Shown here: one piece after another, positions 27,648 through 28,253 of the stretch
Position numbering within the stretch: position 1 is the first letter of the stretch
Layout: every line of letters starts with the position of its first letter
Virus record (IMG/VR): IMGVR_UViG_3300032235_000387
Coordinates: 7,211-71,210 of that record
Strand: one strand, 5' to 3'
Length of the DNA: 64,000 nt
From: a virus
The notes under the pieces: model-generated
Databases searched by the model: none
Seen by the model: only the letters and a program-made list of their open reading frames with translations
What the model was told of the DNA's origin: nothing
Position numbers and translations under genes: made by a program

Positions 27648-27672
27648 AAAAAAAGGAGGGAATCAACCCTCC
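27648..27672 (-). terminator. Rho-independent terminator ending the DUF4278 unit
   Basis: GGAGGG-TTGATT-CCCTCC followed by TTTTTTT on the minus strand. Confidence 0.75.
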
Positions 27673-27679
27673 TCCGTAT

Positions 27680-27781
27680 TTAAGCAATTTGAGATTGCTT
27701 TGCCATATTCAATTGTGCAATATAAAGAAGTTTTTCTTTTTTTGCTTTTTTCTTAAGATAACGAACAAAATAAGTGTTCAT
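27680..27781 (-). CDS. 33-aa basic peptide
   Basis: MNTYFVRYLKKKAKKEKLLYIAQLNMAKQSQIA*; ATGA overlap with the DUF4278 stop suggests translational coupling. Confidence 0.55.
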   Translation of the reverse strand: MNTYFVRYLKKKAKKEKLLYIAQLNMAKQSQIA

Positions 27782-27936
27782 TTTGCCACCTCCTGATTTT
27801 TACAAGGACGGTATGCTACTCCACGATACGTATTTTGTGGATGAGCAGGTGAATGAGTCTTATTATACCAAGAGACATATTCTTTCTTTGCATCTTCGGT
27901 GTCGTATTGACAACCTCTATAAACGACTTTAGACAT
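27778..27936 (-). CDS. DUF4278-like small protein (52 aa)
   Basis: MSKVVYRGCQYD...NTYRGVAYRP with two YRG-x-x-Y motifs; strong RBS (AAGGAG) upstream. Confidence 0.8.
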   Translation of the reverse strand: MSKVVYRGCQYDTEDAKKEYVSWYNKTHSPAHPQNTYRGVAYRPCKNQEVAK

Positions 27937-27968
27937 TAGGTTTTCTCCTTAGTTTTTAAGTTAAAGAG

Positions 27969-28194
27969 CGTTCCTTCAGTCAACTTTTGCGTCTAGTTTG
28001 CACTCTTTAGGAGATATTTGTTTAATCTCCCACATTAAATCATTTTTGATTTTTGGTGTTAAATTAGGATAATTATTTACCCTAGAAATAATCAATTGTG
28101 CCTGTAAGCAATTTAGAATGAGTGCTTCCATAGATGAACGATCCGTTCCGAGTCGGCTTACTTCCGTTCGCTATTCGCGAATAGCGAATGAACG
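27969..28194 (-). ncRNA. Tandem glutamine-riboswitch-like aptamers (glnA / downstream-peptide class)
   Basis: Aptamer 1 (28194-28144): CGTTCA-[TTCGCTATTCGCGAATAGCGAA hairpin]-CGGAAGTAAG...GGAACG. Aptamer 2 (28140-27969): CGTTCA-TCTA...TAGA-CGCAA...CTGAAGGAACG. CGTTC/GAACG P1 pairing; sits upstream of DUF4278. Confidence 0.75.
27976..28131 (-). CDS. 51-aa ORF nested inside riboswitch aptamer 2
   Basis: MEALILNCLQAQLIISRVNNYPNLTPKIKNDLMWEIKQISPKECKLDAKVD*; ATG in the 5' P2 strand, TGA in the CTGAAGGAACG element. Confidence 0.6.
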   Translation of the reverse strand: MEALILNCLQAQLIISRVNNYPNLTPKIKNDLMWEIKQISPKECKLDAKVD

Positions 28195-28201
28195 TAGAGG
28201 A

Positions 28202-28253
28202 ATTATACCTCATTAATTAAATTTATAAAAGTTTTTTTGTAATTTATGATACA
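28202..28253 (-). promoter_or_regulatory. NtcA-type box plus -10 element
   Basis: TGTA-N8-TACA at 28238-28253, and TATAAT at 28207-28202, 7 nt upstream of the aptamer start. Confidence 0.6.

What the first reader, a model, noticed from the sequence alone, without database searches (positions are those of the whole stretch)
27969..28140. A protein-coding ORF embedded in the P2 loop of a riboswitch aptamer
Seen: in aptamer 2 the P2 stem is only TCTA/TAGA and closes a ~130-nt loop. The ATG overlaps the 5' stem strand, and a 51-codon frame reads through the 3' strand to stop at the TGA inside CTGAAGGAACG. An open frame this long in AT-rich DNA, with two Cys near its ends, looks selected. Inference: ribosomes on this ORF would unfold the aptamer, while ligand binding would hide its start. 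That would give mutually exclusive expression of the nested ORF and DUF4278, or a translation-coupled switch. I do not know a described riboswitch with this layout.
Basis: partly seen in the sequence, partly recalled or inferred. Interest (0 to 1): 0.8.

Follow-up and report, generated by a model that had tools for sequence, protein, structure and literature searches.

The report
Gene nested inside cyanophage glutamine riboswitch
In this cyanophage, one hairpin of a glutamine-sensing RNA switch closes around a real 51-codon protein gene, so sensing the host's nitrogen state and translating that gene should compete on a single mRNA.

Summary
On the minus strand, a 51-codon ORF (28131..27976) starts in the 5' strand of a 4-bp stem (UCUA/UAGA). 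It ends at a UGA inside the conserved 3' core of a glutamine-riboswitch-like leader, upstream of a DUF4278/IF17-like gene.

The ORF is a real gene:
- 58 of 59 homologous long-form loci keep the frame open, and 0 of 59 keep either other frame open.
- Length differences come in steps of 3.
- Median dN/dS is 0.28.
- It matches phrog_504.
- It is predicted to fold as a two-helix hairpin.

The RNA is not two independent tandem aptamers. The 8 nt after CGGAAGUA pair with the 8 nt before GAAGGAACGC, with compensatory changes (U-A/G-C 21/23 in 44 sequences). This gives one nested, two-junction fold, and the gene sits on a branch of the inner junction.

A second, unrelated small gene occupies the other P2 loop in 24 of 124 relatives.

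How translation and glutamine sensing interact (reciprocal, coupled or independent) is inferred, not shown.

I found no paper describing the layout in the library searched. Earlier notes of this scan report the same layout in other cyanophage genomes, so it is not unique to this window.

The parts
28202..28229 (-). Promoter-like site, TTTATA-16-TATAAT. The -10 box is at 28207-28202. A start about 7 nt downstream would put the outer P1 strand at the 5' end of the mRNA.
   Evidence: 10 of 12 consensus matches; a consensus match only. The terminator-like hairpin of the upstream gene lies at 28308-28281.
28190..28194 (-). Outer P1, 5' strand (CGUUC).
   Evidence: Invariant in 44 short-form sequences.
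28167..28188 (-). Outer P2 hairpin (UUCGCUAUUCGCGAAUAGCGAA), short in this window. In 24 of 124 relatives this loop holds a second small gene.
28159..28166 (-). J2/3 core CGGAAGUA (E-loop strand).
   Evidence: alignment to RF01739.
28151..28158 (-). S1 (AGCCGACU), the 5' strand of the long-range P3 helix.
   Evidence: It covaries with S2.
28136..28148 (-). Inner hairpin GAACG-GAU-CGUUC.
   Evidence: The unconstrained MFE forms it. The loop varies in length and carries insertions of 21 to about 40 nt in L050 and L013. The stem strands are invariant, so there is no covariation to test.
27976..28131 (-). Nested gene, 51 codons plus UGA. phrog_504 family; predicted two-helix hairpin with invariant Cys8 and Cys44.
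28131..28134 (-). P2' stem, 5' strand (UCUA). Its last base is the A of the AUG.
   Evidence: paired with 27992-27995 in 53 of 54 sequences or more, at each of the 4 pairs.
28120..28125 (-). P2' extension, 5' strand (GCACUC; codons 3-4).
   Evidence: 82.4% of cells paired against a shuffled mean of 78.2% (0 of 500 shuffles reach it). 3 of 6 pairs show changes on both sides. Moderate support.
28000..28005 (-). P2' extension, 3' strand (GAGUGC; codons Glu43-Cys44).
27992..27995 (-). P2' stem, 3' strand (UAGA), inside the coding frame.
27986..27991 (-). Inner-junction strand CGCAAA. It stands where a canonical core has CGGAAGUA, so the inner E-loop is missing.
   Evidence: In canonical relatives (L128-L131, L146) this position reads CGGAAGUA.
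27978..27985 (-). S2 (AGUUGACU), the 3' strand of the long-range P3 helix. It encodes Lys/Val/Asp, and its last U begins the UGA stop.
27968..27977 (-). GAAG (E-loop strand), then the outer P1 3' strand GAACG, then the conserved C.
   Evidence: It matches the RF01739 consensus GAAGGAACGC.
27962..27968 (-). Anti-SD CUCUUUA. It shares C27968 with the riboswitch core.
   Evidence: Pairs with the SD in every fold computed. The CUCUUUA-type sequence is seen in most relatives (by eye).
27945..27951 (-). Shine-Dalgarno sequence UAAGGAG of the downstream gene.
27778..27936 (-). DUF4278/IF17-like gene, 52 aa, with two YRG motifs.
   Evidence: One search gives PF14105 at 22.2 bits, below the cut-off of 25.3. 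phrog_5049 at E 3e-11.
27652..27675 (-). Terminator-like hairpin that ends the unit.

Best explanation
Shown by computation:
- The stretch from about 28196 to about 27650 (minus strand) is a self-contained phage transcription unit.
- Its leader is one composite glutamine-I-type riboswitch. An outer three-way junction carries every conserved core element: CGUUC-A-P2-ACGGAAGUA-[P3]-GAAGGAACGC.
- The P3 of this junction is a long-range 8-bp helix (S1/S2). At its far end it opens into a second, degenerate junction.
- One arm of the inner junction is a hairpin whose loop is a real 51-codon gene of the phrog_504 small-protein family.
- RNA and protein constraints overlap. The start codon lies in the stem, and codons 3-4 and 43-44 can pair with each other. 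The last six codons and the stop are written by the riboswitch core.

Inferred:
- Glutamine binding to the outer junction engages C27968 and loosens the anti-SD/SD hairpin. This turns the IF17-like gene ON, as proposed for the Synechocystis gifB leader.
- The folded, ligand-bound RNA also buries the nested gene's SD-less start in the inner junction. Conversely, ribosomes translating the nested gene must unwind S2 and the outer P1 3' strand.
- The two small proteins would then be made preferentially at opposite nitrogen states: the nested protein at low glutamine, the IF17-like protein at high glutamine.
- The direction and strength of this cross-talk are my inference.

The confidence given covers the whole statement. 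The computed part (real gene, nested composite fold) I hold at about 0.9. The reciprocal-expression part I hold at about 0.35-0.4.
For: The gene is real:
- 58 of 59 long-form loci keep the frame open; the other two frames are open in 0 of 59.
- Indels come in steps of 3.
- Entropy at codon positions 1/2/3 is 0.85/0.48/1.20.
- Mean pS is 0.67 against pN 0.29. Median dN/dS is 0.28 over the 375 of 1378 pairs with unsaturated pS, and 98% of those are below 1.
- It matches phrog_504 at E 7.8e-8.
- A profile search finds 73 cluster representatives.
- One homologue (L258) stands free, with no riboswitch motifs within 500 nt on either side.
- AlphaFold2 gives pLDDT 84 with helices at 2-20 and 26-39.
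- GenBank already annotates the homologue as a hypothetical protein in S-SRM01 and DSL-LC02.

The RNA fold:
- In 44 distinct short forms, pair 52-161 is G-C 23 / U-A 21 with 0 unpaired. Pair 45-168 is A-U 40 / C-G 3 with 1 unpaired.
- The covariation score is 0.165 against 0.040 for shuffles (0 of 500 reach it). Slid controls give 0.006 or less.
- The local P3 hairpins fail in 26 of 44 sequences.
- The helix is kept in ORF-bearing forms. The terminal pairs are paired in 117 of 118 cells, and S1 CAAC occurs only with S2 GUUG (6 of 6).
- CGUUCAUCUAUGGA was not part of the search pattern, yet it is identical in all 59 long forms while interior synonymous sites are saturated.
- The inner junction has lost both E-loop strands together. 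That fits the nested fold and not two separate aptamers.
- Canonical relatives (L128-L131, L146) carry the homologous gene inside an 8-10-bp P2 and again have complementary S1/S2.

ON-switch logic:
- Passages of PMC6212724 describe the C after P1 and its neighbours pairing with the RBS, and glutamine melting that helix.
- Here CUCUUUA pairs with UAAGGAG in all computed folds.

Transcription, weak evidence:
- RNA-library contigs of relatives run unbroken from the riboswitch 5' part through the ORF into the downstream gene (X16 record 11, X15 record 5).
Against: - There is no experimental datum on glutamine binding, on translation of the nested gene, or on regulation for this or any long-form element.
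- Rfam scores the local halves below the gathering score (31.7 and 33.5 bits against 35) and reports nothing at gathering score in the window.
- All four P1 strands are invariant, so covariation cannot separate the nested fold from a pseudoknotted one that keeps both local P1 helices.
- Nearest-neighbour energies barely separate the nested fold (-58.2) from the tandem fold (-56.1 kcal/mol). The unconstrained MFE (-63.3) forms neither outer P1.
- The SD hairpin persists in every computed state, so the opening step rests on analogy alone.
- The UGA lies 8 nt upstream of the anti-SD and 39 nt upstream of the next AUG. A terminating ribosome should therefore expose the SD, which favours coupling over exclusion.
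- In L126 and L127 the riboswitch is largely gone and the ORF's stop overlaps the downstream SD (L126 read; both classed).
- The downstream gene varies in type among loci that share the nested gene. This argues against a fixed protein pair.
- The invariance of the 3' half in my set was partly imposed by the search pattern.
- The RNA-library contigs may include DNA carry-over (the tool's own caveat).
Confidence: 0.5

Rival explanations
1. Coupling model. Translation of the nested gene activates the IF17-like gene. The terminating ribosome at UGA 27978-27976 melts S2, the outer P1 strand and the anti-SD, and hands over to the strong SD 25-31 nt downstream. The two proteins are then co-expressed, and glutamine only adds a second, independent route to opening the SD.
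For: - Geometry of the stop, the anti-SD, the SD and the next AUG.
- In S-SRM01-type loci, the compensated U-to-G change in S2 removes the UGA. The frame then runs on to a UAA inside the anti-SD.
- In L126 and L127 the stop overlaps the downstream SD after the riboswitch was lost (L126 read; both classed).
- The nested gene is followed by a YRG-type or other short gene in every complete long-form locus.
Against: - The nested start lacks a recognisable SD and sits in three short helices, so its initiation should itself depend on the state of the RNA.
- In canonical relatives (L128, L146) the ORF ends at or just before the P2 3' strand, about 50-60 nt from the SD. That is too far for a footprint to reach.
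Confidence: 0.22
2. Passenger model. The P2-type loops tolerate any insertion, and small phage genes have settled there simply to borrow a promoter, as homing-endonuclease genes sit in intron loops. Any interference between translation and sensing is incidental and of no selected use.
For: - Two unrelated small-gene families occupy the two loops (hhalign probability 1%).
- All four combinations occur in 124 places: 54 with neither, 41 with the inner only, 10 with the outer only, 14 with both, and 5 undetermined.
- Non-coding insertions also occur in the linker loop of L013 and L050.
- A free-standing homologue exists (L258).
Against: - In all three layouts the AUG is placed in or at the top of the 5' strand of the closing stem: UCUAUG, UCCUAUG, CUAUCAUG.
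- Both ends of the ORF pair with each other.
- The layout is frequent in this lineage (59 of 124 places) but rare among ordinary phage glutamine aptamers (1 of 134 evaluable). It is therefore tied to the interlocked fold and not to any tolerant loop.
Confidence: 0.18
3. Relic model. Insertion of the gene split and killed the second sensor core, and the flanking motifs are decaying remnants. Only the upstream half still matters, if anything does.
For: - The inner junction lacks the E-loop strands: CGCAAA stands for CGGAAGUA, and C stands for GAAG.
- Rfam does not score the split half at all.
Against: - The same degenerate inner junction is present in the 65 short forms without any ORF, so the insertion did not cause it.
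- The 5' flank is identical in all 59 long forms, although synonymous sites are saturated.
- S1/S2 compensation is kept in long forms.
- The upstream half alone lacks GAAGG, so it needs the downstream half to complete a canonical core.
Confidence: 0.05

Closest known systems
Glutamine-I riboswitch (glnA RNA, Rfam RF01739), e.g. the Synechocystis gifB/IF17 leader (PMC6212724; passages read)
   Same: - The core sequence elements CGUUC-A-P2-ACGGAAGUA-P3-GAAGGAACGC.
- Its position in front of a DUF4278/IF17-like gene.
- A C after P1 that continues into a stretch complementary to the RBS. In the published model, glutamine melts this helix and turns translation ON.
   Different: - P3 is a long-range helix between segments about 165 nt apart (about 45 nt in the short forms), not a local 3-4-bp hairpin.
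- P3 opens into a second junction.
- One hairpin loop contains a conserved protein gene whose start, end and stop are part of the RNA fold.
- Rfam's model misses it at the gathering score.
Ordinary tandem glutamine riboswitches (157 doublets and 4 triplets counted in PMC9481103; passage read)
   Same: Two core-like units lie in a row before one gene.
   Different: - In 14 of the 15 tandem phage loci I sampled, each unit has its own local P3 hairpin and a short P2.
- In the window's lineage the local hairpins do not form and the two P3 segments pair with each other.
- The review's passages that I read treat the doublets as independent, pseudo-cooperative units. They mention neither nesting nor an ORF.
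Leader ORFs inside sensing leaders, such as mgtL in the Salmonella mgtA Mg2+ leader (recalled; not checked in any call)
   Same: A short ORF lies inside a ligand-sensing 5' leader, and its translation is thought to decide between alternative RNA structures.
   Different: - Those ORFs are regulatory peptides of about 17 codons with no known function as proteins.
- Here the ORF belongs to a 50-aa protein family. It is under purifying selection, has a confident predicted fold and has free-standing relatives.
Protein genes in terminal loops of group I and group II introns, and dual-function sRNAs (recalled; not checked in any call)
   Same: A structured functional RNA tolerates a whole ORF in a peripheral loop, so one transcript is both a folded RNA and an mRNA.
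   Different: - The host RNA here is a metabolite sensor, not a ribozyme or a base-pairing sRNA.
- The ORF overlaps the conserved core, with six codons plus the stop.
- No mobility function is evident.

Membership tests
Glutamine-I riboswitch (RF01739) | Rfam covariance-model score at or above the gathering score (35 bits) | tested here: not met
   One search finds no hit at gathering score. One search finds only 28140-28196 at 31.7 bits. The short-form relatives score 33.1-33.5 bits for the downstream half. The model cannot align a core whose P3 spans 165 nt. The S-CREM1 paper's Table 4 lists a single 99-nt RF01739 hit of 44.0 bits spanning both halves of the short form, from an older Rfam release.
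Glutamine-I riboswitch (RF01739) | P1 helix CGUUC/GAACG closing the junction | tested here: inconclusive
   Both strands are present (28194-28190 and 27973-27969) and invariant. There is no covariation, and the strands are identical to those of the inner hairpin, so the pairing partner cannot be proved.
Glutamine-I riboswitch (RF01739) | Conserved junction strands ACGGAAGUA and GAAGG (E-loop), plus the C after P1 | tested here: met
   CGGAAGUA lies at 28166-28159, and GAAG-GAACG-C at 27977-27968. They lie in one junction only under the nested fold.
Glutamine-I riboswitch (RF01739) | P3 helix between the two E-loop strands, supported by covariation | tested here: met
   The S1/S2 helix has two pairs with full compensation in 24 of 44 sequences, with 0 of 500 shuffles reaching the score. 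It is long-range rather than a hairpin.
Glutamine-I riboswitch (RF01739) | Selective binding of L-glutamine and glutamine-dependent gene control | not testable with these tools
   This needs in-line probing or ITC, and reporters.
DUF4278 (PF14105; IF17-like) | Pfam score at or above the curated cut-off (25.3 bits) for the downstream protein | tested here: not met
   22.2 bits, E 1.9e-4, covering residues 3-50. The protein has the two YRG motifs seen in its relatives. I call it DUF4278-like, not a member.
phrog_504 (phage small protein of unknown function) | Significant match of the nested protein to the family profile over most of its length | tested here: met
   E 7.8e-8, residues 6-49 on profile positions 10-52 of 53. 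The canonical-type nested homologue in L128 matches weakly (E 0.0077).

The most novel reading that the evidence does not exclude
The composite RNA is a two-output nitrogen switch in which a riboswitch and a ribosome compete for the same nucleotides. With glutamine bound, the interlocked fold hides the nested gene's start and frees the SD of the IF17-like gene. Without glutamine, ribosomes load on the nested gene and keep the sensor unfolded. The phage would then make two different small proteins at opposite host nitrogen states from one 550-nt transcript. The second gene family in the other P2 loop would make this a general way for these phages to plug genes into a metabolite sensor.
Probability: 0.3. 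Interest if true: 0.9.

Novelty: new variant of a known kind. Interest (0 to 1): 0.75.

Why it matters
Riboswitch aptamers are treated as compact non-coding domains, and annotation pipelines look for them that way. Here a conserved protein gene lies inside the sensor fold. The same nucleotides are read as codons and as core RNA, and Rfam's gathering threshold misses the element. If translation and ligand sensing really compete, this would be a natural example of a riboswitch with two coding outputs. It would also give a direct handle on how ribosome traffic and RNA folding are balanced in vivo. Biologically, the unit sits in front of an IF17-like gene. IF17 inactivates cyanobacterial glutamine synthetase (PMC6212724). 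The unit therefore bears on how freshwater and estuarine cyanophages read and reset host nitrogen metabolism. Three cultured phages (S-SRM01, DSL-LC02, DSL-LC03) carry the long form, and S-CREM1 carries the short form, so the question can be tested directly.

Tried and rejected
- **Chance ORF:** rejected.
- **Two independent tandem aptamers with local P3 hairpins:** rejected for this lineage. This holds for ordinary marine tandem loci.
- **Homology between the two nested-gene families:** hhalign aligns Cys to Cys, but the probability is 1.2%. Not claimed.
- **Function of the nested protein:**
  - Pfam gave nothing.
  - Foldseek against the PDB gave no match at E <= 0.001.
  - The ESM Atlas gave only viral hypothetical clusters.
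  - tblastn of two divergent family members against isolated phages gave only the same three phages or nothing.
- **Binding of the nested protein to the DUF4278-like protein:** Complex prediction gave no verdict. This is no evidence either way.
- **Host copies:**
  - The 3'-half pattern occurs 6 times in 185,579 species genomes. Three of these are the element itself, on short MAG contigs labelled as non-cyanobacterial; they are probably mis-binned phage DNA. The other three are chance matches.
  - One protein query found nothing in genome contigs or in viral contigs. Another found nothing in viral contigs.
I saw only the P0065 group (4 nested in canonical cores, 2 with the riboswitch lost) and the P0080 group (free-standing).
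- **RNA runs:**
  - All four are Logan contigs, with shares of 0.05-0.06 for the window's own words.
  - They cover relatives, not this phage. They cannot show starts, strand or level.
  - The absence of cover upstream of 28204 is not evidence of a transcription start.
- **Thermodynamic comparison of nested and tandem folds:** not decisive.
- **Literature:**
  - Searches found no paper describing an ORF inside a glutamine or other riboswitch aptamer, or an interlocked tandem fold. I read passages of PMC9964418, PMC12379486, PMC2864571, PMC6212724 and PMC9481103.
  - Ames and Breaker 2011 (PMC3127080) is not held and could bear on the tandem fold.
  - I did not ask for supplements. Supplementary Figure S3 of PMC6212724 (the RBS-pairing model) and Table S7 of PMC9964418 were not seen.
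Full report
**What is there**

The feature lies on the minus strand. One search lists an ATG-started ORF at 28131..27976 (51 aa). One search shows it in context...GGAACG-GAU-CGUUCA-UCUA-UGG... at its 5' end, and ...UAGA-CGCAAA-AGUUGACU-GAAGGAACGC-UCUUUA... at its 3' end. A strong SD (UAAGGAG) follows, and then a 52-aa gene (27936..27778). This gene matches DUF4278 just below Pfam's cut-off (22.2 against 25.3 bits).

Upstream lies a short hairpin unit, 28196-28140. Rfam aligns it to the glutamine riboswitch RF01739 at 31.7 bits, below the gathering score of 35. At gathering score the whole window has no Rfam hit.

A promoter-like site (28229-28202) and two terminator-like hairpins (28308-28281 and 27675-27652) bracket the unit. 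The window belongs to an IMG/VR virus record of 71,210 bases with an estimated completeness of 34%.

**Is the ORF a gene? Yes.**

- *Isolated phages.* tblastn finds full-length, stop-free homologues in three isolated Synechococcus phages: S-SRM01, DSL-LC02 and DSL-LC03 (57-71% identity). Two of them are annotated as hypothetical proteins.
Together with the window and four GenBank loci, this gave 125 places.
  - 59 are 'long' forms, 65 are 'short' forms with a plain hairpin instead of the ORF, and one is truncated.
  - In the long forms the distance between the two RNA halves is 146, 149, 152, 155 or 161 nt.
  - 58 of 59 keep the frame open for 50-55 codons; L086 has an in-frame stop.
  - Neither alternative frame is open in any of the 59.
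- *Selection.* This was measured on 53 distinct sequences and 45 interior codons.
  - Entropy rises from codon position 2 (0.48) to 1 (0.85) to 3 (1.20).
  - Mean pS is 0.67 against pN 0.29.
  - Median dN/dS is 0.28 over the 375 of 1378 pairs whose synonymous sites are not saturated. It is below 1 in 98% of them.
- *Family.* The protein matches phrog_504, of unknown function (E 7.8e-8), and has no Pfam match.
- *Predicted fold.* AlphaFold2 predicts a two-helix hairpin (pLDDT 84; helices 2-20 and 26-39) with a disordered tail. Cys8 and Cys44 are invariant in 50 sequences.
- *Wider family.* A profile search of 1.84 billion representatives finds 73 clusters. 21 end in the riboswitch-dictated D-A-K/N-x-D tail, and 52 do not.
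- *Context of the others.* I could look at only two of those 52.
  - The P0065 group gave six loci. Four are nested in canonical cores, and two have the riboswitch largely deleted.
  - P0080 is a free-standing gene, with no riboswitch motif within 500 nt on either side.

**What is the RNA?**

The short forms, such as phage S-CREM1 (annotated 'riboswitch glnA'), look like two aptamers in tandem. Neither half is complete, however. The upstream half has CGGAAGUA but lacks GAAGG. The downstream half has GAAGGAACGC but reads CGCAAA where CGGAAGUA should be.

The 8 nt after CGGAAGUA (S1) and the 8 nt before GAAGG (S2) are complementary, and they covary.

- Across 121 places the combinations are: AGCCGACU/AGCCGACU (70), AGCCGACG/CGCCGACU (32), CGCCGACU/AGCCGACG (4), and S1 ..CAAC.. 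only with S2 ..GUUG.. (6).
- On an alignment of 44 distinct short forms, one terminal pair is G-C in 23 and U-A in 21, with none unpaired. The other is A-U in 40 and C-G in 3.
- The covariation score is 0.165 against 0.040 for shuffles (0 of 500 reach it). Slid controls give 0.006 or less.
- The local hairpins that an independent aptamer would need are unpaired in 26 of 44 sequences.

The simplest fold is therefore nested. The first CGUUC pairs with the last GAACG. S1/S2 is the P3 of a fully canonical outer junction. The middle GAACG-loop-CGUUC is a hairpin. The ORF hairpin is a branch of an inner junction that lacks both E-loop strands.

Several caveats apply. The P1-type strands never vary, so a pseudoknotted fold that keeps both local P1 helices cannot be excluded. 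Nearest-neighbour energies do not decide the matter either (-58.2 against -56.1 kcal/mol).

**Is the sensor still under selection with the gene inside it?**

- The 14 nt CGUUCAUCUAUGGA were not part of my search pattern. They are identical in all 59 long forms, while interior synonymous sites are saturated.
- S1/S2 compensation is kept in long forms (117 of 118 terminal cells paired).
- UCUA/UAGA pairs in at least 53 of 54 sequences at each position.
- A further helix between codons 3-4 and codons 43-44 (GCACUC/GAGUGC) is paired in 82% of cells. Three of its six pairs change on both sides. This is modestly above shuffles (78%; 0 of 500 reach it) and well above the slid controls.
- RNAfold predicts this helix for the window on its own. 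The region has a z-score of -3.55.

One caveat applies here. The invariance of the 3' half in my set is partly imposed by the exact pattern used to collect it. The protein-based search shows that tails such as DAPAD, DANAD and DAKDD also exist.

**How general is it?**

- A second gene family, with no detectable similarity to the first, fills the outer P2 loop in 24 of 124 relatives, though not in the window. Its proteins are 66-73 aa, with a hydrophobic, signal-like N-terminus and two conserved Cys. Median dN/dS is 0.30 over 211 pairs.
- The four layouts count as follows: 54 with neither gene, 41 with the inner gene only (the window's class), 10 with the outer gene only, 14 with both, and 5 undetermined.
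- Among ordinary phage glutamine aptamers sampled with a canonical pattern, 133 of 135 matches have a P2 of 40 nt or less. One (L146) carries a homologue of the nested gene, and one is truncated.
- In 14 of 15 tandem loci in that sample, each unit has its own P3 hairpin. The exception, L146, again has complementary S1/S2.
- The 3'-half pattern occurs only six times in 185,579 species genomes. Three are the element itself, on short MAG contigs with non-cyanobacterial labels, and three are chance matches.

The interlocked fold and the nested genes therefore go together and look phage-specific.

**How it may work**

For the downstream gene I follow the published model for the Synechocystis gifB leader. 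There the C after P1 and its neighbours pair with the RBS, and glutamine binding melts that helix, so the gene is turned ON (PMC6212724, passages). In the window, C27968 begins CUCUUUA, which pairs with UAAGGAG in every fold computed.

For the nested gene three points matter:
- Its start has no recognisable SD and sits among three short helices of the inner junction.
- Its last codons are S2 and the E-loop strand.
- A ribosome stopped at UGA would cover the outer P1 strand and the anti-SD.

Translation and the folded sensor therefore cannot coexist on one molecule at one time. That much follows from the geometry.

Whether the outcome is reciprocal expression (my preferred reading), coupling, or no selected cross-talk is open. 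The loci that lost the riboswitch and kept the ORF abutting the downstream SD (L126, L127; L126 read, both classed) point towards co-expression. The placement of the AUG in the closing stem in all three layouts points towards regulated access.

RNA-library contigs of relatives span the riboswitch, the ORF and the downstream start without a break. This is compatible with one transcript, but it does not prove it.

**Novelty**

Six literature searches and passages of five papers gave no description of a gene inside a riboswitch aptamer, or of interlocked glutamine cores. Ames and Breaker 2011 was not available, and I did not ask for supplements. Earlier notes of this scan report the same layout in other cyanophage genomes, with the same conclusions. 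My tests agree with them, but they are not independent evidence. I class the finding as a new variant of a known kind: a glutamine riboswitch with an interlocked two-junction fold that houses protein genes.

Noticed in passing
L053:3665-3868 (-) and 21 other loci; not present in the window: A second nested gene family (66-73 aa) lies inside the outer P2 loop (UCCUAU...AUAGGA). It has a hydrophobic, signal-like N-terminus, two conserved Cys and a median dN/dS of 0.30. It has no PHROG match and no significant similarity to the window's nested protein.
   Followed up: partly
window 28239-28252 (-): A GTA-N8-TAC palindrome (NtcA-box-like) lies 31 nt upstream of the TATAAT box. That is not the spacing of about 22 nt that I recall for NtcA-activated promoters. 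Similar palindromes stand upstream in DSL-LC02 and S-CREM1.
   Followed up: no
window 28197-28211 (-), and many loci: The -10 box TATAAT sits in the loop of a short inverted repeat: GAGG-TATAAT-TCCUC here, GGGG-TATAAT-AATCCCC in relatives. This could be an operator or a DNA-level hairpin. It is conserved across many contigs.
   Followed up: no
window 27680-27781 (-): A 33-aa, very basic ORF overlaps the stop of the DUF4278-like gene (ATGA). It is conserved and annotated in S-SRM01 (locus L001, 2073-2174). It has no PHROG match.
   Followed up: partly
L013:3338-3481 and L050: Non-coding insertions of about 40 nt and 21 nt lie in the loop between the middle GAACG and CGUUC. This fits that segment being a hairpin loop or a free linker.
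   Followed up: no
L126 and L127: In these relatives the riboswitch 5' and 3' parts are deleted. The nested-type gene is kept, with its stop codon overlapping the SD of the DUF4278-like gene.
   Followed up: partly
L252, L253, L256: Copies of the phage element lie on short contigs of MAGs labelled Acetobacteraceae, Bacteroidota and Acidimicrobiaceae. These are probably phage contigs mis-binned into bacterial MAGs.
   Followed up: no
Loci: The gene behind the riboswitch is modular. At least four C-terminal types follow the shared N-terminal YRG motif, and one type lacks YRG altogether. All sit behind the same nested gene.
   Followed up: no
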